Source: a plasmid. Taken from it: a DNA stretch of 64,000 bases. The stretch lies in the NCBI RefSeq assembly GCF_054482595.1, contig NZ_JBTHVH010000004.1; one strand, given 5' to 3'. The notes beneath the pieces are model-generated. The model searched no databases and was not told the DNA's origin. It saw only the letters and a list, made by a program, of their open reading frames with translations. Shown here piece by piece: positions 29,109 through 49,808 of this stretch. Positions within the stretch are counted from its first letter, which is position 1. The number at the start of each line of letters is the position of its first letter. Made by a program: the position numbers and the translations under genes.

Positions 29109-29336
29109 GCTCATGAGCGGAGAACGAGATGACGTTGGAGGGGCAAGGTCGCGCTGATTGCTGGGGCAACACGTGGAGCGGATCGGGGATTGTCTTTCTT
29201 CAGCTCGCTGATGATATGCTGACGCTCAATGCCGTTTGGCCTCCGACTAACGAAAATCCCGCATTTGGACGGCTGATCCGATTGGCACGGCGGACGGCGA
29301 ATGGCGGAGCAGACGCTCGTCCGGGGGCAATGAGAT

Positions 29337-30362: not shown

Positions 30363-30367
30363 AGTAG

Positions 30368-30729
30368 ATGCCGACCGAACAAGAGCTGATTTCGAGAACG
30401 CCTCAGCCAGCAACTCGCGCGAGCCTAGCAAGGCAAATGCGAGAGAACGGCCTTACGCTTGGTGGCACAGTTCTCGTCCACAGTTCGCTAAGCTCGCTCG
30501 GCTGGGTCGCGGGAGGGCCGGTCGCAGTGATTCAGGCCCTTCTGGATTGTGTTGGTCCCCAGGGCACGATTGTCATGCCCACGCACTCGGGTGATCTGAC
30601 TGATCCCGCAGATTGGAGATCGCCGCCCGTGCCTGCCGATTGGGTGCAGATCTTGCGCAACGAGATGCCGGCATACGATCCGCAAACCACACCAACTCGG
30701 AACATGGGTGCAGTGGCTGAATTGTTCCG
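30368..30729 (+). pseudogene. 3'-truncated AAC(3)-family acetyltransferase gene
   Basis: First 120 codons resemble the AAC(3) N-terminus ('GGTVLVHSSLSSLG...GTIVMPTHSGDLTDP'); the frame is cut by the IS6-family element at about 30730. Confidence 0.5.
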
Positions 30730-31619: not shown

Positions 31620-33121
31620 ATGCGTTCCGCTCCGGAGATGTCTGGCTTACTAGGTCCCGGCGCTATGGCGATCTGAAACACGCACTCGTTCCGGCACAAT
31701 CCATCGCGGAAGGCGGTCGTCTCGCTGTGCCATTGCGGCCGGAGGAATGGCTGGCAGACCGGCAAGCTCGCCTCGACATGCGGTTGCGCGAGCTTGGCCG
31801 TGCCGCTCGCGCAGGCACGATCCCGGGCGGGTCGATTGAAAACGGCGTTCTGCATATCGAGAAACTCGAAGCCGCCGCGCCGACAGGCGCCGAAGATCTG
31901 GTGCTCGATCTCTACAAGCAGATCCCGCCCACGCGCATCACCGATCTCCTGCTGGAGGTGGATGCGGCGACCGGCTTCACCGAAGCGTTCACCCATCTGC
32001 GCACAGGAGCACCCTGCGCTGACCGGATCGGGCTAATGAACGTTATCTTGGCGGAAGGGATCAACCTCGGCTTGCGCAAAATGGCGGATGCGACAAACAC
32101 CCACACCTTCTGGGAATTGATCCGCATTGGACGGTGGCATGTCGAGGGCGAAGCCTATGACCGGGCGCTGGCCATGGTGGTCGAGGCACAGGCAGCGTTA
32201 CCCATGGCCCGGTTCTGGGGCATGGGCACGTCGGCTTCGAGCGACGGACAGTTCTTCGTCGCTACAGAGCAAGGTGAGGCCATGAACCTGGTCAACGCGA
32301 AATATGGCAATACCCCGGGCCTGAAAGCCTATAGCCACGTCTCCGACCAATATGCGCCGTTCGCAACCCAGGTGATTCCTGCAACGGCAAGCGAAGCGCC
32401 TTACATCCTCGATGGCCTGCTGATGAACGATGCTGGACGCCATATCCGCGAGCAGTTCACCGACACGGGCGGCTTCACCGATCACGTCTTTGCCGCATGT
32501 GCCATTCTCGGCTACCGGTTCGCTCCGCGCATCCGCGACCTGCCATCCAAACGGCTCTACGCGTTCAATCCGTCGGCCGCCCCGGCGCACCTGCGAGCGT
32601 TGATCGGCGGAAAGGTCAACCAAGCCATGATCGAGCGCAATTGGCCCGACATCCTGCGCATCGCCGCCACCATTGCTGCCGGGACCGTCGCGCCAAGCCA
32701 GATTCTGCGGAAACTCGCCTCCTATCCGCGGCAGAACGAGCTCGCGACAGCCCTGCGGGAAGTCGGTCGCGTCGAGCGCACCCTGTTCATGATCGACTGG
32801 ATTCTGGATGCCGAACTCCAACGGCGTGCCCAGATCGGGCTCAACAAAGGCGAAGCTCATCATGCGCTGAAGCGGGCAATCAGCTTCCACCGCCGCGGTG
32901 AAATCCGCGACCGTTCCGCCGAAGGCCAGCATTACCGCATCGCCGGCATGAATCTGCTCGCCGCCATCATCATCTTCTGGAACACCATGAAGCTCGGCGA
33001 GGTCGTTGCAAACCAGAAACGCGATGGAAAGCTGCTATCGCCCGATCTCTTGGCCCATGTTTCGCCGCTCGGATGGGAACACATCAATCTCACCGGAGAA
33101 TATCGCTGGCCAAAGCCTTAG
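31620..33121 (+). pseudogene. tnpA: 5'-truncated Tn3-family transposase gene (Tn5393-type tnpA, C-terminal about 500 codons)
   Basis: Homologous by eye to the C-terminal half of the 995-aa TnpA at 50492..53479 ('...SPLGWEHINLTGEYRW'); the track ORF start lies inside the IS6 element so the 5' end is missing. Confidence 0.7.
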
Positions 33122-33153
33122 CGTAGGATTCCGCCCCCTCCCGCAAACGACCC
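33073..33153. repeat. Tn5393-type 81-bp terminal inverted repeat (tnpA end)
   Basis: Reverse complement reads 'GGGGTCGTTTGCGGGAGGGGGCGGAATCCTACGCTAAGGCTTTGGCCAGCGATATTCTCCGG...', matching the recalled Tn5393 IR; overlaps the tnpA 3' end. Confidence 0.6.
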
Positions 33154-33154
33154 C

Positions 33155-34066
33155 GTGATGACCCTGCAGGCATCCCCTGAGACCCGGTTAATGCGCGCCG
33201 AGGTGCAGCGGCATTATCCGCACATCTGGCAGGAGCTGGAGGGGCTGGCGCAGGGACTGGAGGCCACTGTTGATCAGGTCTTTGCCTGGAACTGCCGTGG
33301 CGATCTGGTGCGCTCAACGTCGGATGGCTGTACGACGGTGGCCGGGGTAAACGCCGCAGGCGAGCGGATTATCGCGCATAATGAAGACGGTTTTCCTCAG
33401 TTACGGGATGAATGCTTGCTGGCTACCATTACTCCGAGTCGCGGTCTGAGCTTTACGAGTTTTGCCTATCCGGGGTCGATTTGCGGCCACACCTTTGCGG
33501 TAAATGAAAAAGGTATCGTTAACACGGTGAATAACATCCGTGCAGTGTATCGTCCGCAGGGATTACCGCGTCAGATCCTGGCTCGCGCCTCGCTGAATGC
33601 GAACACCCTCGACGAGGCCATCACTATACTTACCGGCCAGCCGCGATCCGGGGCGTTTCACCATACGCTCGGGCAGCTGGGCGATGCGCGGCTGTTCAGC
33701 GTTGAGGCCACCGGTCAAGGCTGTTCCGTTCTACCCCTGACGACGGTAACCGGGCATGCCAACCATCTGGTGCATGCGGCACTGGCTGGCGTTGAGCAGA
33801 TCGTTACCGACAGTTCAGCGTCGCGGCAGTTACGCCTCGTGCAGTGGCGGGAAACGCAACCTCCGTTTGACGCCGCGGCGGCAAAAACCATTCTCTCAGA
33901 TACCCATGACGCAGAACTGCCAATTTACCGGCTGGCTGCCGACGATCCGGATGAGGAGAACACCCTCGCCACGGCAGTTTTCACCCTCGATGCCAACCAC
34001 GTCAGGTGGCAAATTTTCGACATTAACCGCGACGATGCTAAATTTCATGGAGAAGTGCGTGGGTGA
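33155..34066 (+). CDS. Hypothetical Ntn-hydrolase / peptidase C45-like protein (303 aa)
   Basis: ORF with 'DGCTT' candidate nucleophile context; family assignment is tentative. Confidence 0.45.
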   Translation: MMTLQASPETRLMRAEVQRHYPHIWQELEGLAQGLEATVDQVFAWNCRGDLVRSTSDGCTTVAGVNAAGERIIAHNEDGFPQLRDECLLATITPSRGLSFTSFAYPGSICGHTFAVNEKGIVNTVNNIRAVYRPQGLPRQILARASLNANTLDEAITILTGQPRSGAFHHTLGQLGDARLFSVEATGQGCSVLPLTTVTGHANHLVHAALAGVEQIVTDSSASRQLRLVQWRETQPPFDAAAAKTILSDTHDAELPIYRLAADDPDEENTLATAVFTLDANHVRWQIFDINRDDAKFHGEVRG

Positions 34067-34219
34067 AATAGCCGGTCGTCAGTCATAAAGGGCAGGGGAG
34101 TACCGTTGGCCCGGCGTTCGATAGTACCGTCCGGATACTGCCAGATATCGGCGTCCAGGGAGATGTCCTGAAGCGCGGTGTCCGGAATTTCAGGTTTGTG
34201 TCTCTACAAAGACTAACTA

Positions 34220-35035
34220 TCAGAAAAACTCATCGAGCATCAAATGAAACTGCAATTTATTCATATCAGGATTATCAATACCATATTTTTGAAAAAGCCG
34301 TTTCTGTAATGAAGGAGAAAATTCACCGAGGCAGTTCCATAGGATGGCAAGATCCTGGTATCGGTCTGCGATTCCGACTCGTCCAACATCAATACAACCT
34401 ATTAATTTCCCCTCGTCAAAAATAAGGTTATCAAGTGAGAAATCACCATGAGTGACGACTGAATCCGGTGAGAATGGCAAAAGCTTATGCATTTCTTTCC
34501 AGACTTGTTCAACAGGCCAGCCATTACGCTCGTCATCAAAATCACTCGCATCAACCAAACCGTTATTCATTCGTGATTGCGCCTGAGCGAGACGAAATAC
34601 GCGATCGCTGTTAAAAGGACAATTACTAACAGGAATCGAATGCAACCGGCGCAGGAACGCTGCCAGCGCATCAACAATATTTTCACCTGAATCAGGATAT
34701 TCTTCTAATACCTGGAATGCTGTTTTCCCGGGGAGCGCAGTGGTGAGTAACCATGCATCATCAGGAGTACGGATAAAATGCTTGATGGTCGGAAGAGGCA
34801 TAAATGCCGTCAGCCAGTTTAGTCTGACCATCTCATCTGTAACATCATTGGCAACGCTACCTTTGCCATGTTTCAGAAACAACTCTGGCGCATCGGGCTT
34901 CCCATACAATCGATAGATTGTCGCACCTGATTGCCCGACATTATCGCGAGCCCATTTATACCCATATAAATCAGCATCCAGGTTGGAATTTAATCGCGGC
35001 CTCGAGCAAGACGTTTCCCGTTGAATATGGCTCAT
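34220..35035 (-). CDS. aph(3')-Ia: Aminoglycoside 3'-phosphotransferase APH(3')-Ia (kanamycin/neomycin resistance)
   Basis: 'MSHIQRETSCSRPRLNSNLDADLYGYKWARDNVGQSGATIYRLYGKPDAPELFLKHGKG...' matches recalled Tn903 AphA1. Confidence 0.9.
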   Translation of the reverse strand: MSHIQRETSCSRPRLNSNLDADLYGYKWARDNVGQSGATIYRLYGKPDAPELFLKHGKGSVANDVTDEMVRLNWLTAFMPLPTIKHFIRTPDDAWLLTTALPGKTAFQVLEEYPDSGENIVDALAAFLRRLHSIPVSNCPFNSDRVFRLAQAQSRMNNGLVDASDFDDERNGWPVEQVWKEMHKLLPFSPDSVVTHGDFSLDNLIFDEGKLIGCIDVGRVGIADRYQDLAILWNCLGEFSPSLQKRLFQKYGIDNPDMNKLQFHLMLDEFF

Positions 35036-35139
35036 AACACCCCTTGTATTACTGTTTATGTAAGCAGACAGTTTTATTGTTCATGATGATATATTTTTAT
35101 CTTGTGCAATGTAACATCAGAGATTTTGAGACACAACGT

Positions 35140-35264
35140 GGATTTGTTGAATAAATCGAACTTTTGCTGAGTTGAAGGATCAGATCACGCATCTTCCCGA
35201 CAACGCAGACCGTTCCGTGGCAAAGCAAAAGTTCAAAATCACCAACTGGCCCACCTACAATAAA
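35140..35264. mobile_element. IS903 end remnant (about 125 bp) upstream of aph(3')-Ia
   Basis: 'GGATTTGTTGAATAAATCGAACTTTTGCTGAGTTGAAGGATCAGATCACGC...' resembles the IS903 terminal repeat and adjoining sequence of Tn903; cut by the Tn5393 IR. Confidence 0.5.
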
Positions 35265-35345
35265 GGGGTCGTTTGCGGGAGAGGGCGAAATCCTACGCTA
35301 AGGCTTTGGCCAACGATATTCTCCGGTAAGATTGATGTGTTCCCA
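35265..35345. repeat. Tn5393-type 81-bp terminal inverted repeat (strB end)
   Basis: 'GGGGTCGTTTGCGGGAGAGGGCGAAATCCTACGCTAAGGCTTTGGCCAACGATATTCTCCGG...' immediately downstream of strB. Confidence 0.6.
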
Positions 35346-35370
35346 GGGGATAGGAGAAGTCGCTTGATAT

Positions 35371-36207
35371 CTAGTATGACGTCTGTCGCACCTGCTTGAT
35401 CGCGGCCGCGATAGCTAGATCGCGTTGCTCCTCTTCTCCATCCGCGTTCCAAGCTGCGGAAAGGCACCCATAAGCGTACGCCTGGTCGAGCAGGCGACGC
35501 GGATCGACGTCCAGCGCACGAGAGAATGCGTCCGCCATCTGTGCAATGCGTCTAGGATCGAGACAAAGGTCGTCTCTGTCAGCCGGATCGTAGAACATAT
35601 TGGCGGCGCCAAAGCCCACTTCACCGACCAGACCGACGGGATCTATCACCAGCCAGCCGCGACTGGAGAACATGATGTTTTCATGATGCAGATCGCCATG
35701 TAGCCCACGCAGTTCCGAGGCATTGCTCATCATTTGATCGGCTATAATCGCCGCGTGGACGTAGTCAGTTTGACAACCTGCGTTTTGATCATCGCGCGCC
35801 CGCTGAAACAAAGCTGCAAAGCGATCCCGGATCGGGAGAAGGGCAGAAGGCAGGGGTTCCTCAGATGCGGCATACAGCTTCGCCATTAGTTCCGCTGCAA
35901 TTTCGGTCGCCTGGTAGTCGCCGTGCTCGGCAACGATGTGAGAGAGCATTCGCTCCCCGGCATATTCGAGCAACATCAGATTGTTCTCACGACCGAGCAA
36001 CCGGACTGCTCCCCTCCCATTGCGCCATACCAGATAGTCGGCCCCGCGCAGTTCATCAGCAATGTCTTCTATAGGTTTCAATTCCTTGACGATTGCAGGA
36101 GTCCCGTCTGGCAATGAAACTTTCCAAACGAGGCTGGAAAAGGTGTCCGCAATGAGAACAGGTTGCGAAACGTGCCAATGAGCAGGAAAAACAGGCGGCA
36201 TGAACAT
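35371..36207 (-). CDS. strB: Streptomycin phosphotransferase APH(6)-Id
   Basis: 'MFMPPVFPAHWHVSQPVLIADTFSSLVWKVSLPDGTPAIVK...' matches recalled StrB; its ATG shares one base with the strA stop. Confidence 0.9.
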   Translation of the reverse strand: MFMPPVFPAHWHVSQPVLIADTFSSLVWKVSLPDGTPAIVKELKPIEDIADELRGADYLVWRNGRGAVRLLGRENNLMLLEYAGERMLSHIVAEHGDYQATEIAAELMAKLYAASEEPLPSALLPIRDRFAALFQRARDDQNAGCQTDYVHAAIIADQMMSNASELRGLHGDLHHENIMFSSRGWLVIDPVGLVGEVGFGAANMFYDPADRDDLCLDPRRIAQMADAFSRALDVDPRRLLDQAYAYGCLSAAWNADGEEEQRDLAIAAAIKQVRQTSY

Positions 36208-37010
36208 CAACCCCAAGTCAGAGGGTCCAATCGCAGATAGAAGGCAAGGCGTTCGCGGTCGGGGGCTTCGATCCCCAATACATTGAATAGGACAGCGAAG
36301 GCGCGCTCTGCTTCATCTGGCGCTGCCCAGTTCTCTTCGGCGTTAGCAATCATGAGTGCCAAATCGGCATAGCGATCTGCTGTTCCGAGCCGCCCAAGGT
36401 CGATCAGACCCGTGCATTGAAGAGTTTTAGGGTCCACCATGAAGTTCGGCATGCAGGGATCACCATGGCAAACAACCATATCGGTGCGCTCTTGGTCGAG
36501 CCGCACCGGTAGCTCTCGTTCGACACGAGCCAAAAGATCGAGCTGCGGCGTACTCTTGTCCTCGTCCGGTAAGAAGTCGGGATTGACGGCATTGCGGGAC
36601 ACCACATCAACGGCGCGTCCGAACATTCGCGACAGCCTGCGCTCAAACGGACATTGATCAACCGATAGGCTGTGAACAGCGCCAAGTTGCTGCCCCATTG
36701 ACGGCCACGCTTTGAGCAAATCCGCTCCAGACAGATCAGCCGCCGGTACTCCCGGAATTGCCGTTATCACCAAGCATGCACCCTCCTGTTCCTCCTGCCA
36801 GTTGATCACCTCGGGGCAAGCCACACCTCGACCTTTGAGCCAAATGAGGCGGTCACGCTCTCCAGCGAGCTCACCGCGGCGGGAAGCAGGTGCGATTTTC
36901 GCGAAGGCATGCCCGTCACCACGTCGAAAAACAAAATCACCAGATTCTCCGCCTCTGACAGGCAACCAGTCAGAATGCGATTCACCAAAAAAAATATTAG
37001 TTCGATTCAA
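36207..37010 (-). CDS. strA: Streptomycin phosphotransferase APH(3'')-Ib
   Basis: '(M/L)NRTNIFFGESHSDWLPVRGGESGDFVFRRGDGHAFAKIAP...' matches recalled StrA; TTG start at 37010 with GAAGGA RBS. Confidence 0.9.
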   Translation of the reverse strand: MNRTNIFFGESHSDWLPVRGGESGDFVFRRGDGHAFAKIAPASRRGELAGERDRLIWLKGRGVACPEVINWQEEQEGACLVITAIPGVPAADLSGADLLKAWPSMGQQLGAVHSLSVDQCPFERRLSRMFGRAVDVVSRNAVNPDFLPDEDKSTPQLDLLARVERELPVRLDQERTDMVVCHGDPCMPNFMVDPKTLQCTGLIDLGRLGTADRYADLALMIANAEENWAAPDEAERAFAVLFNVLGIEAPDRERLAFYLRLDPLTWG

Positions 37011-37302
37011 TGGAGGTTCCTTCAGTTTTCTGATGAAGCGCGGAGGTGGCTCAACCTGCGAAAAGAAACGAGTTGCTATGGACTTGCACCGGTTGTGTTC
37101 CGGTCTATCTCTCATTTTAAGCGGCTTTTTTCTCAAATGCCACCGGCGATTTCCAGCCGAGTGTTGAATGTCTTCGGCGTGGATTATAAAAGCCATTTAC
37201 CCATATAATGCGCCTACTTATCAGCCTTTGGGACGTTGGGACGGTATTTTTCACTATATACCCCCAAGTTTTTAGACATGAAAAAAGGGTAATGACTCCA
37301 AC

Positions 37303-37806
37303 TTATTGATAGTGTTTTATGTTCAGATAATGCCCGATGACTTTGTCATGCAGCTCCACCGATTTTGAGAACGACAGCGACTTCCGTCCCAGCCGTGCCA
37401 GGTGCTGCCTCAGATTCAGGTTATGCCGCTCAATTCGCTGCGTATATCGCTTGCTGATTACGTGCAGCTTTCCCTTCAGGCGGGATTCATACAGCGGCCA
37501 GCCATCCGTCATCCATATCACCACGTCAAAGGGTGACAGCAGGCTCATAAGACGCCCCAGCGTCGCCATAGTGCGTTCACCGAATACGTGCGCAACAACC
37601 GTCTTCCGGAGCCTGTCATACGCGTAAAACAGCCAGCGCTGGCGCGATTTAGCCCCGACGTATCCCCACTGTTCGTCCATTTCCGCGCAGACGATGACGT
37701 CACTGCCCGGCTGTATGCGCGAGGTTACCGACTGCGGCCTGAGTTTTTTAAGTGACGTAAAATCGTGTTGAGGCCAACGCCCATAATGCGGGCTGTTGCC
37801 CGGCAT
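37303..37806 (-). CDS. insB: IS1 InsB (expressed as InsAB' by frameshift)
   Basis: 167-aa ORF overlapping insA in the -1 frame, as in IS1. Confidence 0.85.
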
Positions 37807-38000
37807 CCAACGCCATTCATGGCCATATCAATGATTTTCTGGTGCGTACCGGGTTGAGAAGCGGTGTAAGTGAACTGCAGTTGCCATGTTTTACGGCAGT
37901 GAGAGCAGAGATAGCGCTGATGTCCGGCGGTGCTTTTGCCGTTACGCACCACCCCGTCAGTAGCTGAACAGGAGGGACAGCTGATAGAAACAGAAGCCAC
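37725..38000 (-). CDS. insA: IS1 InsA
   Basis: '[43 protein letters not shown]...'. Confidence 0.9.
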
Positions 38001-38055
38001 TGGAGCACCTCAAAAACACCATCATACACTAAATCAGTAAGTTGGCAGCATCACC

Positions 38056-38234
38056 CGACGCACTTTGCGCCGAATAAATACCTGTGACGGAAGATCACTT
38101 CGCAGAATAAATAAATCCTGGTGTCCCTGTTGATACCGGGAAGCCCTGGGCCAACTTTTGGCGAAAATGAGACGTTGATCGGCACGTAAGAGGTTCCAAC
38201 TTTCACCATAATGAAATAAGATCACTACCGGGCG
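38056..38234. other. Tn9 remnant: catA1 upstream/promoter region without the cat gene
   Basis: 'CGACGCACTTTGCGCCGAATAAATACCTGTGACGGAAGATCACTTCGCAG...TTTCACCATAATGAAATAAGATCACTACCGGGCG' is the recalled sequence between IS1 and cat in Tn9/pACYC184-type DNA. Confidence 0.65.
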
Positions 38235-38793
38235 CTGAGAGATCCCCTCATAATTTCCCCAAAGCGTAACCATGTGTGAATAAATTTTGAGCTAGTAGGG
38301 TTGCAGCCACGAGTAAGTCTTCCCTTGTTATTGTGTAGCCAGAATGCCGCAAAACTTCCATGCCTAAGCGAACTGTTGAGAGTACGTTTCGATTTCTGAC
38401 TGTGTTAGCCTGGAAGTGCTTGTCCCAACCTTGTTTCTGAGCATGAACGCCCGCAAGCCAACATGTTAGTTGAAGCATCAGGGCGATTAGCAGCATGATA
38501 TCAAAACGCTCTGAGCTGCTCGTTCGGCTATGGCGTAGGCCTAGTCCGTAGGCAGGACTTTTCAAGTCTCGGAAGGTTTCTTCAATCTGCATTCGCTTCG
38601 AATAGATATTAACAAGTTGTTTGGGTGTTCGAATTTCAACAGGTAAGTTAGTTGCTAGAACCCATGGCTCCTTTGCCGACGCTGAGTAGATTTTAGGTGA
38701 CGGGTGGTGACAATGAGTCCGTGTCGAGCGCTGATTTTTTCGGCCTTTAGAGCGAGATTTATACAATAGAATTTGGCATGAGATTGGATTGCT
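38235..38793 (-). mobile_element. IS10 fragment (terminal about 560 bp, transposase C-terminus), truncated by IS26
   Basis: Starts with the IS10 end 'CTGAGAGATCCCCTCATAATTTCCCCAAAGCGTAACC'; the encoded C-terminal fragment ends '...LFTHGYALGKL'. Confidence 0.7.
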
Positions 38794-39613
38794 GGCACTG
38801 TTGCAAAGTTAGCGATGAGGCAGCCTTTTGTCTTATTCAAAGGCCTTACATTTCAAAAACTCTGCTTACCAGGCGCATTTCGCCCAGGGGATCACCATAA
38901 TAAAATGCTGAGGCCTGGCCTTTGCGTAGTGCACGCATCACCTCAATACCTTTGATGGTGGCGTAAGCCGTCTTCATGGATTTAAATCCCAGCGTGGCGC
39001 CGATTATCCGTTTCAGTTTGCCATGATCGCATTCAATCACGTTGTTCCGGTACTTAATCTGTCGGTGTTCAACGTCAGACGGGCACCGGCCTTCGCGTTT
39101 GAGCAGAGCAAGCGCGCGACCATAGGCGGGCGCTTTATCCGTGTTGATGAATCGCGGGATCTGCCACTTCTTCACGTTGTTGAGGATTTTACCCAGAAAC
39201 CGGTATGCAGCTTTGCTGTTACGACGGGAGGAGAGATAAAAATCGACAGTGCGGCCCCGGCTGTCGACGGCCCGGTACAGATACGCCCAGCGGCCATTGA
39301 CCTTCACGTAGGTTTCATCCATGTGCCACGGGCAAAGATCGGAAGGGTTACGCCAGTACCAGCGCAGCCGTTTTTCCATTTCAGGCGCATAACGCTGAAC
39401 CCAGCGGTAAATCGTGGAGTGATCGACATTCACTCCGCGTTCAGCCAGCATCTCCTGCAGCTCACGGTAACTGATGCCGTATTTGCAGTACCAGCGTACG
39501 GCCCACAGAATGATGTCACGCTGAAAATGCCGGCCTTTGAATGGGTTCATGTGCAGCTCCATCAGCAAAAGGGGATGATAAGTTTATCACCACCGACTAT
39601 TTGCAACAGTGCC
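38794..39613 (-). mobile_element. IS26 copy 2
   Basis: Identical terminal repeats and transposase; boundary set by the fixed 52/45-bp offsets from the tnp ORF; no target-site duplication. Confidence 0.95.
38846..39550 (-). CDS. tnpA: IS26 transposase
   Basis: Identical to copy 1. Confidence 0.95.
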   Translation of the reverse strand: MNPFKGRHFQRDIILWAVRWYCKYGISYRELQEMLAERGVNVDHSTIYRWVQRYAPEMEKRLRWYWRNPSDLCPWHMDETYVKVNGRWAYLYRAVDSRGRTVDFYLSSRRNSKAAYRFLGKILNNVKKWQIPRFINTDKAPAYGRALALLKREGRCPSDVEHRQIKYRNNVIECDHGKLKRIIGATLGFKSMKTAYATIKGIEVMRALRKGQASAFYYGDPLGEMRLVSRVFEM

Positions 39614-39664
39614 ACTTGACCTGATAGTTTGGCTGTGAGCAATTATGTGCTTAGTGCATCTAAC
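39614..39664 (-). other. Class 1 integron 3'-conserved-segment start (51 bp), truncated by IS26
   Basis: Reverse complement 'GTTAGATGCACTAAGCACATAATTGCTCACAGCCAAACTATCAGGTCAAGT' is the recalled beginning of the 3'-CS upstream of qacEdelta1. Confidence 0.6.
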
Positions 39665-39702
39665 GTCAAAATCAGCGGCGCGTTTTTATGCGTCCGCTGG
39701 AT

Positions 39703-40524
39703 TTACTTGTTGTGCGGCGTCGCAGACTCATTGAACAACCTTTTTGCCTGCGCAATTACAGTTCTCGGAAGCTCGATATTCAGAGGTTCTGTCACGCTCT
39801 TGAACAATTCGAGACTCCACGTCCACGTTTGATGATAGGCTGCACATAGTGCTCTTGGTTCTGCACTGCTTGTGCATGCCAGATAGCGATTATACGAGTC
39901 CTCCGAGATATCCTTTTCGAGCGCGCGTGAAGGTGTCGGCCAGTGGTCTGTTGCCCCTTCGTGGAGTCGAACCAGCTTGAGTAGGTTTTCATGTGCTTTG
40001 CTGAGCAAAGCCCAGGCGCGAGCGTACTCTCCCCGATTTAAAAGATTGGCCCCAAAGAGCATCAGGCTGATGAGGTTCAACACAAGCCCTTCCACCAGCG
40101 GCGCGCCTTCACGTATCGGGGGACCGCCCACGAGAGCGCTTGCGTACCTTGACAACTCTCCTGATCGGTCCAACAAAACAGCCGCCTCAAGCGAGGGAAA
40201 CCACCCATAGCCTTGCCAAGTGGAAATGACCGGTATGTCCGATTTTCGCATGAAATGGAATTCACCGCGAATGCCGTTTTCAAAAAGTGCGGTGTGGTGG
40301 CCGAAGTCGTCCGGAAAGTAAGCAGCAACCGGACTTACGGCATTAAGCCACGAGCGCTGATCGAAATTTTCAAAATGGTCATCCTGGATGAACACTGCGA
40401 ATTCGATATCAGAGAACTCGTCACCCTCTCCGATAGCAAATGAGCCGAACATCAATGCCGCGATTATTCGTGCATCCTCATGACAACCTTCCTTGAAGAG
40501 TTCGATCATTTTCAGTTGAAGCAT
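39703..40524 (-). CDS. lnu(F): Lincosamide nucleotidyltransferase Lnu(F)
   Basis: 273 aa 'MLQLKMIELFKEGCHEDARIIAALMFGSFAIGEGDEFSDIEFAVFIQDD...' matches recalled Lnu(F); second cassette position. Confidence 0.8.
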   Translation of the reverse strand: MLQLKMIELFKEGCHEDARIIAALMFGSFAIGEGDEFSDIEFAVFIQDDHFENFDQRSWLNAVSPVAAYFPDDFGHHTALFENGIRGEFHFMRKSDIPVISTWQGYGWFPSLEAAVLLDRSGELSRYASALVGGPPIREGAPLVEGLVLNLISLMLFGANLLNRGEYARAWALLSKAHENLLKLVRLHEGATDHWPTPSRALEKDISEDSYNRYLACTSSAEPRALCAAYHQTWTWSLELFKSVTEPLNIELPRTVIAQAKRLFNESATPHNK

Positions 40525-40589
40525 AGAAATATCCTTTTATTGAAGCCACAGATTATGAGGAAAGGTATACGCAGATTTTTGTTTTTTTT

Positions 40590-40655
40590 CGTCAGCACAA
40601 CGCCGGAGTTAAGCCGCCGCGCGTAGCGCGGTCGGCTTGAACGAATTGTTAGACA
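40590..40655 (-). other. attC (59-base element) of the aadA2 cassette (approximate)
   Basis: Imperfect palindromic region 'GTCTAACAATTCGTTCAAGCCGACCGCGCTACGCGCGGCGGCTTAACTCCGGCGTT' between the aadA2 stop and lnu(F). Confidence 0.5.
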
Positions 40656-41447
40656 TTATTTGCCGATTACCTTGGTGATCTCGCCTTTCACGTAGTGGAC
40701 AAATTCTTCCAACTGATCTGCGCGCGAGGCCAAGCGATCTTCTTCTTGTCCAAGATAAGCCTGTCTAGCTTCAAGTATGACGGGCTGATACTGGGCCGGC
40801 AGGCGCTCCATTGCCCAGTCGGCAGCGACATCCTTCGGCGCGATTTTGCCGGTTACTGCGCTGTACCAAATGCGGGACAACGTAAGCACTACATTTCGCT
40901 CATCGCCAGCCCAGTCGGGCGGCGAGTTCCATAGCGTTAAGGTTTCATTTAGCGCCTCAAATAGATCCTGTTCAGGAACCGGATCAAAGAGTTCCTCCGC
41001 CGCTGGACCTACCAAGGCAACGCTATGTTCTCTTGCTTTTGTCAGCAAGATAGCCAGATCAATGTCGATCGTGGCTGGCTCGAAGATACCTGCAAGAATG
41101 TCATTGCGCTGCCATTCTCCAAATTGCAGTTCGCGCTTAGCTGGATAACGCCACGGAATGATGTCGTCGTGCACAACAATGGTGACTTCTACAGCGCGGA
41201 GAATCTCGCTCTCTCCAGGGGAAGCCGAAGTTTCCAAAAGGTCGTTGATCAAAGCTCGCCGCGTTGTTTCATCAAGCCTTACGGTCACCGTAACCAGCAA
41301 ATCAATATCGCTGTATGGCTTCAGGCCGCCATCCACTGCGGAGCCGTACAAATGCACGGCCAGCAACGTTGATTCCAGATGGCGCTCAATGACGCTTAGC
41401 ACCTCTGATAGTTGGTTCGAAATTTCGATGGTCACCGCTACCCTCAT
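40656..41447 (-). CDS. aadA2: Aminoglycoside 3''-adenylyltransferase AadA2
   Basis: 'MRVAVTIEISNQLSEVLSVIERHLESTLLAVHLYGSAVDGGLKPYSDIDLL...'; preceded by the 5'-CS sequence '...AAAACAAAGTTAGACATCATGAGGGTAGCGGTGAC'. Confidence 0.9.
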   Translation of the reverse strand: MRVAVTIEISNQLSEVLSVIERHLESTLLAVHLYGSAVDGGLKPYSDIDLLVTVTVRLDETTRRALINDLLETSASPGESEILRAVEVTIVVHDDIIPWRYPAKRELQFGEWQRNDILAGIFEPATIDIDLAILLTKAREHSVALVGPAAEELFDPVPEQDLFEALNETLTLWNSPPDWAGDERNVVLTLSRIWYSAVTGKIAPKDVAADWAMERLPAQYQPVILEARQAYLGQEEDRLASRADQLEEFVHYVKGEITKVIGK

Positions 41448-41595
41448 GATGTCTAACTTTGTTTTAGGGCGACTGCCCTGCTGCGTAACATCGTTGCTGC
41501 TCCATAACATCAAACATCGACCCACGGCGTAACGCGCTTGCTGCTTGGATGCCCGAGGCATAGACTGTACCCCAAAAAAACAGTCATAACAAGCC

Positions 41596-41716
41596 ATGAA
41601 AACCGCCACTGCGCCGTTACCACCGCTGCGTTCGGTCAAGGTTCTGGACCAGTTGCGTGAGCGCATACGCTACTTGCATTACAGCTTACGAACCGAACAG
41701 GCTTATGTCCACTGGG
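41596..41716 (+). pseudogene. intI1: intI1 truncated after about 40 codons by IS26
   Basis: '[40 protein letters not shown]' then the IS26 inverted repeat. Confidence 0.85.
41683..41711 (-). promoter_or_regulatory. Integron cassette promoter Pc (weak variant: -35 TGGACA, -10 TAAGCT, 17-bp spacer)
   Basis: Reverse complement reads 'TGGACATAAGCCTGTTCGGTTCGTAAGCT'; the -35 lies 5 bp from the IS26 end. Confidence 0.65.
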
Positions 41717-42536
41717 GGCACTGTTGCAAATAGTCGGTGGTGATAAACTTATCATCCCCTTTTGCTGATGGAGCTGCACATGAACCCATTCAAAGGCCGG
41801 CATTTTCAGCGTGACATCATTCTGTGGGCCGTACGCTGGTACTGCAAATACGGCATCAGTTACCGTGAGCTGCAGGAGATGCTGGCTGAACGCGGAGTGA
41901 ATGTCGATCACTCCACGATTTACCGCTGGGTTCAGCGTTATGCGCCTGAAATGGAAAAACGGCTGCGCTGGTACTGGCGTAACCCTTCCGATCTTTGCCC
42001 GTGGCACATGGATGAAACCTACGTGAAGGTCAATGGCCGCTGGGCGTATCTGTACCGGGCCGTCGACAGCCGGGGCCGCACTGTCGATTTTTATCTCTCC
42101 TCCCGTCGTAACAGCAAAGCTGCATACCGGTTTCTGGGTAAAATCCTCAACAACGTGAAGAAGTGGCAGATCCCGCGATTCATCAACACGGATAAAGCGC
42201 CCGCCTATGGTCGCGCGCTTGCTCTGCTCAAACGCGAAGGCCGGTGCCCGTCTGACGTTGAACACCGACAGATTAAGTACCGGAACAACGTGATTGAATG
42301 CGATCATGGCAAACTGAAACGGATAATCGGCGCCACGCTGGGATTTAAATCCATGAAGACGGCTTACGCCACCATCAAAGGTATTGAGGTGATGCGTGCA
42401 CTACGCAAAGGCCAGGCCTCAGCATTTTATTATGGTGATCCCCTGGGCGAAATGCGCCTGGTAAGCAGAGTTTTTGAAATGTAAGGCCTTTGAATAAGAC
42501 AAAAGGCTGCCTCATCGCTAACTTTGCAACAGTGCC
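41717..42536 (+). mobile_element. IS26 copy 3
   Basis: Terminal repeats at both ends; opposite orientation to copies 1 and 2. Confidence 0.95.
41780..42484 (+). CDS. tnpA: IS26 transposase
   Basis: Identical to the other copies. Confidence 0.95.
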   Translation: MNPFKGRHFQRDIILWAVRWYCKYGISYRELQEMLAERGVNVDHSTIYRWVQRYAPEMEKRLRWYWRNPSDLCPWHMDETYVKVNGRWAYLYRAVDSRGRTVDFYLSSRRNSKAAYRFLGKILNNVKKWQIPRFINTDKAPAYGRALALLKREGRCPSDVEHRQIKYRNNVIECDHGKLKRIIGATLGFKSMKTAYATIKGIEVMRALRKGQASAFYYGDPLGEMRLVSRVFEM

Positions 42537-42964
42537 GTAAAGGCGGCCTTATCCACCATTTCCCGAACAAGCAGGCGCTAATATTCGCCCTGTTCGCGCG
42601 TCTGCTGGCAATCATGGAAGAAGCGATTACCGCGCTGATGCAACAGGATGGCGTGAGCTATGGCCGGTTTACCCGCGCCTATCTGAACTATCTGGCGGAT
42701 CTCACGGACACCCATGAAAGCCGCCAGCTTATGGTTTTGTCGCTGGCAATGCCCGATGAACCGGTGCTGCGCAAATGCTGGCGCGACTGGATGCTGGAGA
42801 AACTGGCGCAGGGCGATGAGCTGGATAACAGCCCAACCGGCACGCTGGTGCGCTACGCCGCTGACGGCATCTGGCTTTCGGAGTTGACGGAAGGGATCAC
42901 CATGAGCGCCGACCACCGTCGCGCGCTGGTTGACTCCCTGAATAAAATGACGCTTCCCGCGTGA
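42537..42964 (+). pseudogene. 5'-truncated TetR-family regulator gene (C-terminal ligand-binding part only)
   Basis: The reading frame continues from inside the IS26 end; no N-terminal HTH remains. Confidence 0.5.
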
Positions 42965-42983
42965 AGCACAGACTGAGGCCGCG

Positions 42984-43772
42984 ATGCGCTACAACATCAA
43001 TGCCCGTTTTATCTACGACGCCACCGACGGAACCCTGACGCTGCCGCAAAGCGATGAACCGGACAGCCAGCTATCCCTCACCGCCAGCGCCCTGTTTAAC
43101 TATTTTCTGCGCCATACCGAGATTGTCAGCCGGGAAGATGTTCTGAAAAAAGTCTGGGATGACAATGGATTAACCTCATCCAACAGCAATCTGAATCAGT
43201 ATCTCAGCATGCTGCGGAAGACCTTTCGCCATTACGGCGTCGATAACATCATCGTCACCGTCTCGCGCGGCTATTTGCAGCTTAATCCCGAGGTCATTAT
43301 CGAAGCGCTGGACGACGCGCCGCCGGTTTCACCACAACAGACGCCTGCCGAACCGCCGCCCGTTACGACAACGCCAGACGCACCGCGCTCCGCACATGCT
43401 CGCGGGATGTGCTGGTACATGGCCGGAGCCTGCTTGCTCACCATTGCCCTGCTTCTGGTTGCCTTCAGTCTGGTCGGCATCAGTGAATCCCAGCCTATCG
43501 CGCTGACCCGCCTCAGCCATAGCCAGTGCGAACTGCTGGCCAGCGATGAAATGCGACGTTCGGTCAGTGAAGAGTCCTACGGCAAAAACTTCGATGAGGT
43601 ACGCCAGCGGCTGAATATTGCCTGTAAACCCGGTGAACGTTTTCTTTTCTTCTACGGCGATCGGCTCGAAACCAACGGGCTGGGGCGCGTGTTCCTTGCC
43701 CACTGCGCCATGCATGAAGATAACCCGTTCAGCTATTGCGATAACTACTTTTACTACTCCTGGAAGCCGTAA
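42984..43772 (+). CDS. Membrane-anchored winged-helix (CadC/OmpR-like) transcriptional regulator
   Basis: N-terminal DNA-binding-like domain, Pro-rich linker and one hydrophobic segment ('MCWYMAGACLLTIALLLVAF'). Confidence 0.5.
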   Translation: MRYNINARFIYDATDGTLTLPQSDEPDSQLSLTASALFNYFLRHTEIVSREDVLKKVWDDNGLTSSNSNLNQYLSMLRKTFRHYGVDNIIVTVSRGYLQLNPEVIIEALDDAPPVSPQQTPAEPPPVTTTPDAPRSAHARGMCWYMAGACLLTIALLLVAFSLVGISESQPIALTRLSHSQCELLASDEMRRSVSEESYGKNFDEVRQRLNIACKPGERFLFFYGDRLETNGLGRVFLAHCAMHEDNPFSYCDNYFYYSWKP

Positions 43773-44290
43773 TGAGACTCGCGCCGCGTCCGTTCTTTGC
43801 CCTCTGCGTTCTGGTATTTATTGCCGCCGCCGCGTTTAGCGCCTGGCGGCTGCTGCCTGCCGACAACGCGGGTGTCATGAGCTGTTCCACTAAGGGCATC
43901 ATGCGCTTTGAGAACATGGACAAAGAGAACGTTAACGGCAATATTCACTTCAATTTTGGCGCGCAGGGTAAAGGCTCGATGGTGGTCGAAGGTTACACCG
44001 ACTCCGCCGCCGGCTGGCTCTACCTGCAACGCTACGTGAAGTTTACCTACAGCAGCAAACGCATCTCGGCCACCGAGCGTCATTACCGCATCAATCAGTG
44101 GGAATCGAGCGCCTCCTCGATTGATGAATCGCCGAACGTGATTTTCGACTACTTTATGCGCGAGATGTCCGACAGCCACGACGGGCTGTTTCTCAACGCT
44201 CAGAAGCTCAACGAAAAGGCTATCTTGCTCAGCTCTATCAATTCACCGCTGTGGATCTGCACGTTGAAATCCGGCAGTAAGCTGAACTAA
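43772..44290 (+). CDS. Hypothetical exported/membrane protein (172 aa)
   Basis: ORF with an N-terminal hydrophobic segment; start overlaps the upstream stop. Confidence 0.45.
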   Translation: MRLAPRPFFALCVLVFIAAAAFSAWRLLPADNAGVMSCSTKGIMRFENMDKENVNGNIHFNFGAQGKGSMVVEGYTDSAAGWLYLQRYVKFTYSSKRISATERHYRINQWESSASSIDESPNVIFDYFMREMSDSHDGLFLNAQKLNEKAILLSSINSPLWICTLKSGSKLN

Positions 44291-44294
44291 CCCG

Positions 44295-44711
44295 TCAATC
44301 AAAAAAGACCATCCCCTTGTAGGGGCGTTCGCGACAGGCGGCCAGCCGCTGCGCCAGATTCCCCACATGCAGCTCCAGCTTATGGCCGTCAGGGTCGAGA
44401 AAATAGTAAGACGCCCCTTCACTGCGGTTATCTTTCCATACCTCAGCCCCCGCCTGCGCCAGCAGAGCCACCACCCCGGCAAACTCTTCTTCCGCCACGC
44501 TGAAGGCGTAGTGGGTATAGTCGCTTTCCTGAGGGGGCGTTTTACGCCGCTGCTCATCCAGCGACAAGCACAGCCACAGCGCCCCACAGGAGAGATAGGC
44601 TCCGCTATCCCAGCTGGCGTGCAGGCGCATTCCAGGTAACTGCTGATAAAATGCCAGGCTTGACGCCAGATCGCTGACCGCCAGCGTCAGATGATTCAAT
44701 CCCTGCAGCAT
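44295..44711 (-). CDS. fosA3: Fosfomycin thiol transferase FosA3
   Basis: 138 aa '[54 protein letters not shown]...' matches recalled FosA3; ATG at 44711. Confidence 0.9.
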
Positions 44712-45033
44712 GACTTTTCCTCCCGTTATCAAACCCTGTTGTAAACTGTGATCGGCGACGCATCCCCTCCCGGCCTCACCTCATCACCGGCTAAAAAGCG
44801 CATTTTTTGCGTTTAGCCTGCCATCGGAAACCTGCGCCTCGCCACACTAATCCCCGCTCTATGTTACCCCTTTTTTGAAATCATTTAGCAATCCAATAAC
44901 ATTTCATCCCCCCGGAAAAAGCGGGCTAAAAATCGCCTTATTGAAGACCAAATCAGCACCGACATTACAGCATAAAGACATAAATAAACGCCCTAAAAAG
45001 ACTAAATCACAGAGCTATATCCTAAATAATTAC

Positions 45034-46594
<1,561 letters not shown>

Positions 46595-47725: not shown

Positions 47726-47830
47726 GTGACAACCCTCTGTCTAATGATATTTCGATAATACCAGAAATATCTTGACCAGAATTATATTTCGATTATTCTA
47801 GAAACGTAGATTTTGTCAAGAGGGTTTAGT

Positions 47831-48964
47831 ATGAATAGTTGGATTTCTATGCTGCAAGATGCCGCAGAGATGTTTTTGTTTTTGGCCGTCGAGCTATCTT
47901 TGCTGTTTATTGTCATCAGTGCCGGTGTGAGCCTGATAAGGCAAAAGGTCCCGGACCATAAAATCCAGCAATTGATAGGGGCGAAAAAAGGAAAAGGCTA
48001 CCTGCTGGCCTCGTTGTTGGGAGCCGTTACCCCTTTCTGTAGTTGCTCAACAATTCCAATGCTACGAGGGTTGTTGTCGGCGAAAGCAGGGTTTGGTCCG
48101 ACACTCACTTTTTTGTTTGTTTCACCGTTGCTTAATCCCATTATCGTGGGGTTAATGTGGGTTACCTTTGGCTGGAAAGTAACTTTGTTGTACGCGATCA
48201 TCGCTGCCGGTGTCTCAGTCCTTGCCAGTATCGTATTGGATTTACTAGGATTTGAACGTCATATTGTTGATCACAAAAACTCAGCATCAAGTGGTTGCAC
48301 CACGAAATGCGATGATTCCGAAGCTTCGGTAAAAACGTCGGCGGGTTCCAGTTGTTGCAGCACTAGCTCGACTCAATTGCCTTTAAAAACGAGTTGCTGT
48401 ACTTCATCAGCGAACCCCATAATTAACTTAAGGACGGTAAAGAACGAGCAGAACGTATCAGCGTGTTGTTCATCAATATCATCTGAACAACCAGCTGTTA
48501 GCTGTTGCAGCAGCGAGAATCTGGGCAATGTGAATCTCACAACGAATACCACCTCTGGCCCAATAAAGTTAGCTATGAAAGATGCCTTACAGCAGTTTAA
48601 GGATGTTCTGCCTTATCTTTTGTTAAGTGTATTAATAGGTTCATTTATTTATGGCTTTATCCCTTCAGAGTGGATTGCAGCTCATGCCGGAGCAGATAAT
48701 CCCTTAGCCATACCGCTGAGTGCAGTTGTTGGTATTCCGTTGTATATCCGCGCAGAGGCAGTGATACCACTTGCATCAGTGCTGATGACTAAAGGAATGG
48801 GCCTGGGGGCATTAATGGCCTTGATAATCGGTAGTGCTGGAGCGAGTTTGACAGAAGTAATACTGCTTAAATCAATGTTCAGAATGCCTATGATAGTCGC
48901 TTTTCTGACAGTAATCCTGGGTATGGCCATACTTATGGGGTATCTGACCCAATTGCTTTTTTAA
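47831..48964 (+). CDS. Permease with conserved 'TPFCSCS' motif (ArsP-like) and Cys/Ser-rich central loop
   Basis: Multi-TM protein; 'VTPFCSCSTIP' motif; divergent from the arsR-like gene; ATG at 47831 preferred over TTG at 47813. Confidence 0.6.
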   Translation: MNSWISMLQDAAEMFLFLAVELSLLFIVISAGVSLIRQKVPDHKIQQLIGAKKGKGYLLASLLGAVTPFCSCSTIPMLRGLLSAKAGFGPTLTFLFVSPLLNPIIVGLMWVTFGWKVTLLYAIIAAGVSVLASIVLDLLGFERHIVDHKNSASSGCTTKCDDSEASVKTSAGSSCCSTSSTQLPLKTSCCTSSANPIINLRTVKNEQNVSACCSSISSEQPAVSCCSSENLGNVNLTTNTTSGPIKLAMKDALQQFKDVLPYLLLSVLIGSFIYGFIPSEWIAAHAGADNPLAIPLSAVVGIPLYIRAEAVIPLASVLMTKGMGLGALMALIIGSAGASLTEVILLKSMFRMPMIVAFLTVILGMAILMGYLTQLLF

Positions 48965-48988: not shown

Positions 48989-49808
48989 GGCACTGTTGCA
49001 AATAGTCGGTGGTGATAAACTTATCATCCCCTTTTGCTGATGGAGCTGCACATGAACCCATTCAAAGGCCGGCATTTTCAGCGTGACATCATTCTGTGGG
49101 CCGTACGCTGGTACTGCAAATACGGCATCAGTTACCGTGAGCTGCAGGAGATGCTGGCTGAACGCGGAGTGAATGTCGATCACTCCACGATTTACCGCTG
49201 GGTTCAGCGTTATGCGCCTGAAATGGAAAAACGGCTGCGCTGGTACTGGCGTAACCCTTCCGATCTTTGCCCGTGGCACATGGATGAAACCTACGTGAAG
49301 GTCAATGGCCGCTGGGCGTATCTGTACCGGGCCGTCGACAGCCGGGGCCGCACTGTCGATTTTTATCTCTCCTCCCGTCGTAACAGCAAAGCTGCATACC
49401 GGTTTCTGGGTAAAATCCTCAACAACGTGAAGAAGTGGCAGATCCCGCGATTCATCAACACGGATAAAGCGCCCGCCTATGGTCGCGCGCTTGCTCTGCT
49501 CAAACGCGAAGGCCGGTGCCCGTCTGACGTTGAACACCGACAGATTAAGTACCGGAACAACGTGATTGAATGCGATCATGGCAAACTGAAACGGATAATC
49601 GGCGCCACGCTGGGATTTAAATCCATGAAGACGGCTTACGCCACCATCAAAGGTATTGAGGTGATGCGTGCACTACGCAAAGGCCAGGCCTCAGCATTTT
49701 ATTATGGTGATCCCCTGGGCGAAATGCGCCTGGTAAGCAGAGTTTTTGAAATGTAAGGCCTTTGAATAAGACAAAAGGCTGCCTCATCGCTAACTTTGCA
49801 ACAGTGCC
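48989..49808 (+). mobile_element. IS26 copy 5, flanked by an 8-bp target-site duplication CTTCTGGT
   Basis: Identical 8-mer at 48981..48988 and 49809..49816 directly abutting the inverted repeats; the only IS26 copy with a duplication. Confidence 0.95.
49052..49756 (+). CDS. tnpA: IS26 transposase
   Basis: Identical to the other copies. Confidence 0.95.
   Translation: MNPFKGRHFQRDIILWAVRWYCKYGISYRELQEMLAERGVNVDHSTIYRWVQRYAPEMEKRLRWYWRNPSDLCPWHMDETYVKVNGRWAYLYRAVDSRGRTVDFYLSSRRNSKAAYRFLGKILNNVKKWQIPRFINTDKAPAYGRALALLKREGRCPSDVEHRQIKYRNNVIECDHGKLKRIIGATLGFKSMKTAYATIKGIEVMRALRKGQASAFYYGDPLGEMRLVSRVFEM

What the first reader, a model, noticed from the sequence alone, without database searches (positions are those of the whole stretch)
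39614..41716. Frozen class 1 integron: intI1 cut at codon about 40, cassettes aadA2 then lnu(F)
IS26 copy 3 sits 5 bp from the Pc -35 (TGGACA, with -10 TAAGCT: the weak variant) and removes almost all of intI1; IS26 copy 2 leaves only 51 bp of the 3'-CS. The array can no longer rearrange, and cassette expression depends on a weak Pc possibly aided by IS26 read-out.
Basis: partly seen in the sequence, partly recalled or inferred. Interest (0 to 1): 0.35.

Follow-up and report, generated by a model that had tools for sequence, protein, structure and literature searches.

The report
IS26-trimmed class 1 integron remnant
This is a well-known piece of antibiotic-resistance DNA (a class 1 integron stump carrying aadA22 and lnu(F), boxed in by two IS26 copies) on an IncHI2-type multiresistance plasmid; it is ordinary apart from a previously unrecorded cut point in the integrase gene.

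Summary
The structure is real and sits exactly at 39614-41716. It contains 121 nt (40 codons) of intI1, attI1, two intact cassettes and 51 bp of 3'-CS, between two IS26 copies.

Two corrections:
- The first cassette is aadA22, an aadA2/aadA1 mosaic that is only 91.5% identical to aadA2 at nucleotide level. It is not aadA2.
Published measurements put P2 at about 7 times PcW and show it drives expression in PcW-P2 integrons. Expression therefore does not depend on weak Pc.

IS26 read-out is unlikely. Both flanking tnpA genes point away from the cassettes, and the IS26 outward -35 has no usable -10.

"Frozen" holds only in cis. attI1 and both attC sites are intact, so an IntI1 supplied in trans could still act.

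The 2103-bp fragment is 100% identical to many plasmids, and an IS26-bounded delta-intI1-aadA22-lnu(F) unit is already published. Only the intI1 nt-121/IS26 junction is unrecorded: no hits in five searched collections. Low interest.

The parts
38794..39613 (-). IS26 (left copy), tnpA 39550-38846 reading away from the integron fragment; no target-site duplication
   Evidence: 14-bp IRs; identical to the other four copies, flanks GGATTGCT / ACTTGACC
39614..39664 (-). 3'-CS remnant, 51 bp (GTTAGATGCAC...GGTCAAGT), cut by IS26 before qacEdelta1
   Evidence: 100% match to the start of the 3'-CS of L005 and L004; this exact IS26/3'-CS junction occurs in 192 PLSDB plasmids
39664..40600 (-). lnu(F) cassette (937 bp); CDS 39703-40524; attC about 39664-39715 (inverse core GCACAAC 39715-39709, core G|TTAGAT at 39664)
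   Evidence: NF000119 Lnu(F), 604.6 bits; 1 nt / 1 aa (L264F) difference from the L004 cassette; bottom strand folds as an imperfect hairpin, z = -2.4
40601..41456 (-). aadA22 cassette (856 bp); CDS 40656-41447 (263 aa); attC 40601-40654 (GTCTAAC ... G|TTGTGC)
   Evidence: Mosaic of aadA2 (5' 150 nt and attC) and aadA1 (rest); identical DNA is scored aadA22 at 100%; best NCBIfam hit is AadA1 at 578.9 bits, just below its cutoff; attC hairpin z = -2.7
41451..41530 (-). attI1 recombination site (core GTTAGAC 41457-41451), intact
   Evidence: Identical to the 5'-CS of complete integrons L004 and L005 across this stretch
41564..41592 (-). P2 promoter, active form: -35 TTGTTA (41592-41587), 17-bp spacer containing the GGG insertion, -10 TACAGT (41569-41564)
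   Evidence: L004 and L005 lack GGG and have a 14-bp spacer; promoter strength from PMC2791841
41538..41583 (+). PintI1 (TTGCTG-17-TAGACT, 41538-41566) with the LexA box disrupted to CTG-N13-CAG (41565-41583) by the same 3-bp insertion; reads through the intI1 stub into IS26 tnpA
   Evidence: Disruption of the LexA site by GGG is stated in PMC2791841 and PMC8876359. The hexamer identities come from my own knowledge of the 5'-CS; the papers read here do not print them
41596..41716 (+). intI1 remnant, nt 1-121 (40 codons); continues as a 45-aa stub ORF ending in the IS26 IR at 41733
   Evidence: NF011946 positions 1-40 of 337; tblastn 100% over residues 1-40
41683..41711 (-). Pc, weak variant PcW: -35 TGGACA, 17-bp spacer, -10 TAAGCT, TCG (no TGN) upstream of the -10
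   Evidence: L004 shows PcS TTGACA/TAAACT for contrast
41717..42536 (+). IS26 (right copy), tnpA 41780-42484 reading away from the integron; it is also the left arm of the IS26-fosA3-IS26 module (to 45853)

Best explanation
The region is a relic of a class 1 integron (PcW-P2 type, array aadA22 then lnu(F)) inside the IS26-rich multiresistance region of an IncHI2-type plasmid.

IS26 has removed everything beyond 51 bp of the 3'-CS on one side. That boundary is shared with about 190 plasmids. On the other side it has removed everything beyond nt 121 of intI1, a boundary not seen elsewhere.

The right-hand IS26 is the arm of an IS26-fosA3 module. The new boundary most likely arose by an IS26 replicative event (adjacent deletion) or by IS26-IS26 recombination that trimmed a longer delta-intI1 ancestor. 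Forms ending at nt 1006, 798 and 538 exist in relatives.

Both cassette genes are intact. I infer they are transcribed as one operon mainly from the P2 promoter in attI1, with a minor contribution from PcW, giving spectinomycin/streptomycin and lincosamide modification.

Without IntI1 the array is fixed in cis, but attI1 and both attC sites remain substrates for an integrase supplied in trans. Because the two flanking IS26 are inverted, the fragment is also not an IS26 translocatable unit on its own.
For: Shown:
- Anatomy and coordinates.
- Exact 2103-bp identity to five fetched plasmids and 100% contiguous identity of 36000-41716 to many IncHI2 plasmids.
- The backbone at 1-25000 is 100% identical to IncHI2 plasmids.
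- The left junction occurs in 192 plasmids.
- The right junction has 0 hits in PLSDB, complete E. coli genomes, GTDB representatives, metagenome contigs and the gene-product index.
- Alternative intI1 breakpoints are nt 798 (567 plasmids), nt 538 (20 plasmids) and nt 1006.
- In L001 the nt-538 form shows an IS26-made inversion of intI1 539-798, so IS26 is demonstrably remodelling this gene.
- P2 carries the GGG insertion, unlike L004 and L005.
- The fosA3 module is identical to L006.

From the literature:
- P2 is 7 times PcW and dominates in PcW-P2 (PMC2791841).
- A 2,780-bp IS26-flanked delta-intI1-aadA22-lnu(F) unit with shared boundaries is described in PMC7843705.

Inferred:
- The operon transcript, the order of IS26 events, and the resistance phenotype.
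Against: - No transcription or MIC data exist for this sequence.
- Replacing the DNA upstream of the Pc -35 with the IS26 end could change Pc activity in either direction.
- None of the four TSD-less IS26 copies leaves a footprint, so the exact event (adjacent deletion versus recombination between IS26 copies) cannot be reconstructed.
- With five identical 820-bp repeats, the linkage across IS26 depends on assembly quality, which I cannot check.
Confidence: 0.85

Rival explanations
1. One reading: the cassettes are driven only by the weak PcW, possibly boosted by transcription reading out of the adjoining IS26 (tnpA read-through or an IS26/Pc hybrid promoter).
For: PcW is intact and lies 5 bp from the IS26 end. 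IS26 is known to supply an outward -35 TTGCAA that forms active hybrid promoters (PMC11156391). TTGCAA is 16 nt from CATAAG, a 4/6 match to the -10 consensus.
Against: An active P2 is present and is reported to dominate PcW. The tnpA of this IS26 is on the strand opposite to the cassettes. At the optimal 17-nt spacing the -10 candidate is ATAAGC (1/6). CATAAG lacks the near-invariant T at -7. The consensus scan reports no promoter there.
Confidence: 0.08
2. The unique intI1-nt121/IS26 junction, or its linkage to the fosA3 module, is an assembly artefact caused by the five identical IS26 copies.
For: The junction is absent from every collection searched. There are five identical 820-bp repeats in 22 kb.
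Against: A mis-join across a repeat swaps flanks but does not create a new breakpoint between unique DNA and the IS end. Unique breakpoints are the normal product of IS26 activity, and four different intI1 breakpoints exist in close relatives. The control search for the left junction worked.
Confidence: 0.05
3. The relic now matters mainly as a pair of outward promoters for IS26. Constitutive PintI1 (LexA box destroyed) reads into the right IS26 tnpA, and P2/Pc read through the cassettes into the left IS26 tnpA. This would raise Tnp26 levels and local rearrangement rates.
For: Both tnpA genes are co-oriented with the promoter that faces them. The LexA box is CTG-N13-CAG, and GGG is reported to abolish LexA repression. 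No terminator-like site lies between PintI1 and tnpA, and only one weak site (40194-40182) lies on the cassette strand.
Against: This is purely inferred. IS26 has its own promoter, and translation of tnpA from a long read-through RNA is unknown. The same geometry exists in the nt-538 form (L001), with no reported effect.
Confidence: 0.15

Closest known systems
IS26-flanked incomplete class 1 integron delta-intI1-aadA22-lnu(F) (2,780-bp form; pYUHAP5-2, p160070-CTXM MG288677, pNDM33-1 MN915011; described in PMC7843705)
   Same: The cassettes, attI1, PcW-P2 and the 51-bp 3'-CS/IS26 boundary are identical. The window's 2103 bp are an exact substring of pNDM33-1 (L008) and pTB-nb4 (L002).
   Different: In that form intI1 is kept to nt 798 and the two IS26 are in direct orientation. 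Here intI1 ends at nt 121, the right IS26 is inverted relative to the left one, and it belongs to a fosA3 module.
PcW-P2 class 1 integrons such as In2 of Tn21 (In2 from my own knowledge; the promoter configuration is defined in Jove et al. 2010, PMC2791841)
   Same: TGGACA-17-TAAGCT plus TTGTTA-17(GGG)-TACAGT, with the LexA box disrupted.
   Different: Those integrons keep a full intI1 (IntI1 R32_H39). Here the integrase is gone, so the trade-off between promoter strength and integrase activity no longer applies.
IS26-harvested In37 cassettes (IS26-aac(6')-Ib-cr-blaOXA-1-delta-catB3-IS26; PMC11156391)
   Same: IS26 has cut an integron down to its cassettes and boxed them in.
   Different: There IS26 removed Pc and attI1 and supplies the -35 of a proven hybrid promoter (TTGCAA-17-CATAAT), and the two IS26 form a composite transposon. 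Here the integron's own promoters survive, no usable hybrid exists, and the IS26 copies are inverted.
dfrA12-gcuF-aadA2-lnu(F) integron of pU-KP1685-1 (L004)
   Same: The lnu(F) cassette is the same (1 nt difference), and the aadA attC/lnu(F) junction is identical.
   Different: It carries true aadA2, PcS without P2, a complete intI1 and a full 3'-CS.

Membership tests
Class 1 integron (functional platform) | Intact intI1 encoding a 337-aa tyrosine recombinase | tested here: not met
   Only nt 1-121 / residues 1-40 remain. No other intI1 lies in the window.
Class 1 integron (functional platform) | attI1 site adjacent to the first cassette | tested here: met
   The 5'-CS from the intI1 start to core GTTAGAC (41457-41451) is identical to complete integrons L004 and L005.
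Class 1 integron (functional platform) | Pc promoter inside intI1 reading into the cassettes | tested here: met
   TGGACA-17-TAAGCT at 41711-41683. Activity was not measured.
Class 1 integron (functional platform) | Cassettes, each an ORF plus an attC with inverse core/core and an imperfect hairpin | tested here: met
   GTCTAAC...GTTGTGC and GCACAAC...GTTAGAT; hairpins with z = -2.7 and -2.4. Recombination competence itself was not tested.
Clinical class 1 integron 3'-CS | qacEdelta1-sul1 downstream of the array | tested here: not met
   Only 51 bp of the 3'-CS remain.
PcW-P2 promoter configuration (Jove et al. 2010) | PcW hexamers without TGN, plus P2 TTGTTA/TACAGT brought to 17-bp spacing by a GGG insertion | tested here: met
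   The relative strength is taken from PMC2791841, not measured here.
   725/792 nt identity to the aadA2 of L004, with differences clustered after nt ~150 where the gene matches aadA1.
aadA22 | Allele-level identity to the reference AadA22 | tested here: met
   Indirect: the same 2103 bp in L001, L002, L003 and L008 carry an AMRFinder call of aadA22 at 100% identity. The reference sequence itself was not held here.
Lnu(F) lincosamide nucleotidyltransferase | Score above the NCBIfam NF000119 cutoff over the full length | tested here: met
   604.6 bits against a cutoff of 450, positions 1-273 of 273. AMRFinder gives 99.63% in identical DNA, with L264F relative to L004.
IS26 pseudo-compound transposon / translocatable unit | Two directly oriented IS26 flanking the passenger, with or without an 8-bp TSD | tested here: not met
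   The copies at 38794 and 41717 are inverted and their flanks are unrelated.
IS26 hybrid promoter | Outward -35 TTGCAA followed at about 17 nt by a good -10 in the flanking DNA | tested here: not met
   17 nt: ATAAGC. 16 nt: CATAAG. 18 nt: TAAGCC. None has T at -7 (the criterion follows PMC11156391). Activity is not testable here.

The most novel reading that the evidence does not exclude
The integron relic acts as a bidirectional promoter block for the two IS26 copies that flank it. The GGG insertion that creates P2 also destroys the LexA box, so PintI1 would run constitutively through the 40-codon intI1 stub into the right-hand tnpA. P2/Pc transcripts would run through the cassettes into the left-hand tnpA. 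Together these could raise Tnp26 and make this region a local hot spot of IS26 rearrangement. The otherwise unrecorded nt-121 breakpoint would be one product of that activity.
Probability: 0.12. Interest if true: 0.35.

Novelty: already known. Interest (0 to 1): 0.1.

Why it matters
The practical value is in annotation and phenotype prediction.
- The gene should be named aadA22, not aadA2.
- The array should be predicted as moderately expressed (P2 class, roughly 7 times PcW in published assays), not weakly expressed.
- The fragment should be scored as an integrase-less array, so intI1-based PCR screens targeting the 3' part of the gene will miss it.
- The unrecorded intI1-nt121/IS26 junction could serve as an epidemiological marker for this plasmid lineage.

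None of this changes the understanding of integrons or of IS26.

Tried and rejected
- Searched for the right-hand junction (40-mer or 43-mer spanning 41716/41717) in PLSDB plasmids, complete E. coli genomes, GTDB representative genomes and JGI metagenome contigs, and searched the gene index for the 45-aa stub ORF. All gave zero hits. The left-junction control with the same method gave 192 records.
- A 160-bp junction query was uninformative, because the tool joins separate IS26 and intI1 pieces into one 'place'.
- Looked for 8-bp target duplications, direct or inverted, that would pair the IS26 copies and reveal the event that made the junction. None were found, except the simple insertion at 48989.
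- Looked for a second intI1 or more 3'-CS in the window. None were found. The tblastn hits at 35265 and 33154 match only the aberrant C-terminal extension of the L005 protein, not intI1.
- Considered an IS26/Pc hybrid promoter and tnpA read-through. Rejected on hexamer quality and gene orientation.
- The generic promoter scan detects neither PcW nor P2, because both fall below its 9/12 threshold. It cannot be used for or against them.

Full report
**1. What is in the sequence**

The 14-bp IS26 terminal repeat occurs ten times, defining five 820-bp IS26 copies at 27462, 38794, 41717, 45034 and 48989. All five are identical in sequence. The finding's coordinates, 39614-41716, are exactly the 2103 bp between the second and third copies.

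Read on the minus strand, which is the cassette direction, the fragment contains the following:
- Five bases (CCCAG) next to the IS26 end.
- Pc -35 TGGACA (41711-41706), a 17-bp spacer ending in TCG (no TGN), and -10 TAAGCT (41688-41683).
- The start of intI1 on the opposite strand (ATG at 41596).
- TTGTTA (41592-41587), a 17-bp spacer TGACTGTTTTTTTGGGG, and TACAGT (41569-41564).
- attI1, with core GTTAGAC (41457-41451).
- An aadA gene (41447-40656) with a 54-bp attC ending at G|TTGTGC (40601).
- lnu(F) (40524-39703), whose attC ends at G|TTAGAT (39664).
- 51 bp of 3'-CS running up to the left IS26.

intI1 keeps nt 1-121, i.e. 40 codons. NCBIfam's integron-integrase model matches only positions 1-40 of 337, and tblastn with a full IntI1 finds nothing else in the window.

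**2. Two corrections to the observation**

(a) The aadA gene is not aadA2.
- I aligned it with a true aadA2 (L004) and an aadA1 (L005). The first ~150 nt are aadA2-like (1 mismatch) and the remainder is aadA1-like. Overall it matches aadA2 at 725/792 nt.
- The attC is identical to that of aadA2. The cassette is thus an aadA2 cassette whose coding body has been replaced by aadA1-type sequence.
- The same DNA in public plasmids is scored aadA22 at 100% by AMRFinder, and the window fragment is byte-identical to those plasmids.

- Alignment of the 5'-CS with complete integrons shows a GGG insertion in the window and its close relatives. It is absent from L004 and L005. It lengthens the TTGTTA/TACAGT spacer from 14 to 17 bp.
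- This is the defined active P2. Jove et al. 2010 measured it at 7 times PcW and found that in PcW-P2 integrons PcW 'does not contribute significantly' (PMC2791841).

**3. How it most likely works**

Shown:
- Both cassette ORFs are intact. Lnu(F) scores 604.6 bits against a cutoff of 450. AadA scores 508 bits against the ANT(3'')-I equivalog cutoff of 375.
- attI1 and both attC sites are intact. The attC bottom strands fold as imperfect hairpins.

Inferred:
- One transcript from P2, plus a little from PcW, covers aadA22 and lnu(F).

IS26 help is unlikely:
- The tnpA of the adjoining copy is on the + strand and reads away from the cassettes.
- The outward -35 that IS26 can donate (TTGCAA; PMC11156391) faces ATAAGC at 17 nt, CATAAG at 16 nt and TAAGCC at 18 nt. 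None has the -7 T.

If anything, transcription runs the other way:
- PintI1 (TTGCTG-17-TAGACT, 41538-41566) is intact and its LexA box is stretched to CTG-N13-CAG by the same insertion. The literature says GGG abolishes LexA control.
- PintI1 points through a 45-aa stub ORF into the right-hand tnpA. The cassette transcript points into the left-hand tnpA.
- This read-through is an inference I could not test.

'Frozen' is true in cis, since there is no integrase here. It is not true for an IntI1 supplied in trans. The fragment is also immobile in a second sense: its two IS26 copies are inverted, so it is not an IS26 translocatable unit, unlike the published direct-repeat form.

**4. Context and origin**

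- Window 1-25000 is the ter region of IncHI2 plasmids at 100% identity.
- Window 36000-41716 (aph(3'')-Ib, IS1A, an IS4-family remnant, IS26 and the integron fragment) is contiguous and 100% identical in many IncHI2 plasmids from E. coli and Salmonella. Every such match stops at 41716.
- The right-hand IS26 begins an IS26-fosA3-IS26 module followed by a 5'-truncated blaTEM, as in L006.
- In relatives, intI1 next to IS26 ends at nt 1006 (L003), nt 798 (L002, L007, L008; 567 PLSDB records) or nt 538 (L001; 20 records).
- In L001 the DNA beyond the IS26 is intI1 798->539 inverted. That is the signature of an intramolecular IS26 event.
- The window's nt-121 junction was found nowhere, while the same method recovers the left junction in 192 plasmids.
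- The simplest history is that an IS26 associated with the fosA3 module trimmed a longer delta-intI1 ancestor, by adjacent deletion or by IS26-IS26 recombination. The absence of target duplications prevents choosing between these.

**5. Comparison with what is known, and novelty**

[quoted passage not shown] The window holds the same element with 677 bp less intI1 and the right IS26 flipped. It fails the test for a functional integron (no integrase, no qacEdelta1-sul1) and for an IS26 composite transposon (inverted copies). It meets the tests for the PcW-P2 configuration, aadA22 and lnu(F). I rate it as already known; the only new item is a deletion end point.

**6. Verdict**

The most novel reading not excluded is that the relic's divergent promoters feed both flanking IS26 transposase genes. 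I give that 0.12 probability and modest interest if true.

A streptomycin MIC is confounded by strAB in the same window. Lincosamide MICs in wild-type Enterobacterales are high anyway (general knowledge). Spectinomycin and TSS mapping are the informative tests.

Noticed in passing
window 41717-45853: IS26-fosA3-IS26 module in direct orientation: truncated TetR-like ORF, winged-HTH gene 42984-43772, FidL-like gene 43772-44290, fosA3 about 44295-44711 on the - strand. It is identical to the one in E. coli plasmid NZ_CP066367 (L006). Its left IS26 is the copy that cuts intI1.
   Followed up: partly
window 45857-46594: blaTEM lacking about the first 42 codons, cut by the IS26 at 45034-45853. It matches TEM model positions 43-286 and scores below the cutoff.
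   Followed up: partly
window 48989-49808: The only IS26 copy with an 8-bp target-site duplication (CTTCTGGT on both sides), i.e. a simple insertion. It appears to interrupt a permease/efflux ORF (47813-48964).
   Followed up: partly
window 28305-37196: A dense aminoglycoside-resistance block: aac(3)-IV, aph(4)-Ia, aph(3')-Ia, aph(6)-Id and aph(3'')-Ib. The last two also confer streptomycin resistance, so they confound any streptomycin test of aadA22.
   Followed up: partly
window 39669-39642 (- strand): The best sigma-70-like match in the region (TTGACG-16-CATAAT, 10/12). It is formed at the joint of the lnu(F) attC and the 3'-CS and points into the left IS26 in the direction of its tnpA.
   Followed up: no
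L001 (CP090269.1) 5083-6480: In this relative, intI1 is cut at nt 538 by an IS26. The DNA on the far side of that IS26 is intI1 nt 798->539 in inverted orientation, which is a footprint of an intramolecular replicative IS26 inversion.
   Followed up: partly
window 40601-41456: aadA22 is a three-part mosaic: an aadA2-type 5' end (~150 nt), an aadA1-type body, and an attC identical to that of aadA2. This suggests recombination or gene conversion between aadA1 and aadA2 cassettes.
   Followed up: partly
window 1-26424: IncHI2 backbone with the tellurite-resistance (ter) cluster, 100% identical to many IncHI2 plasmids, and a HipA-N-domain ORF at 25099-26424 just before the resistance region.
   Followed up: no
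L007 (NZ_CP151163.1) 16472-17310: RefSeq annotates the identical aadA22 DNA as a 'frameshifted' AadA pseudogene, although the 263-aa ORF is intact. This appears to be an annotation artefact of the extended upstream ORF through attI1, the same 336-aa ORF listed in the window at 40656-41666.
   Followed up: no
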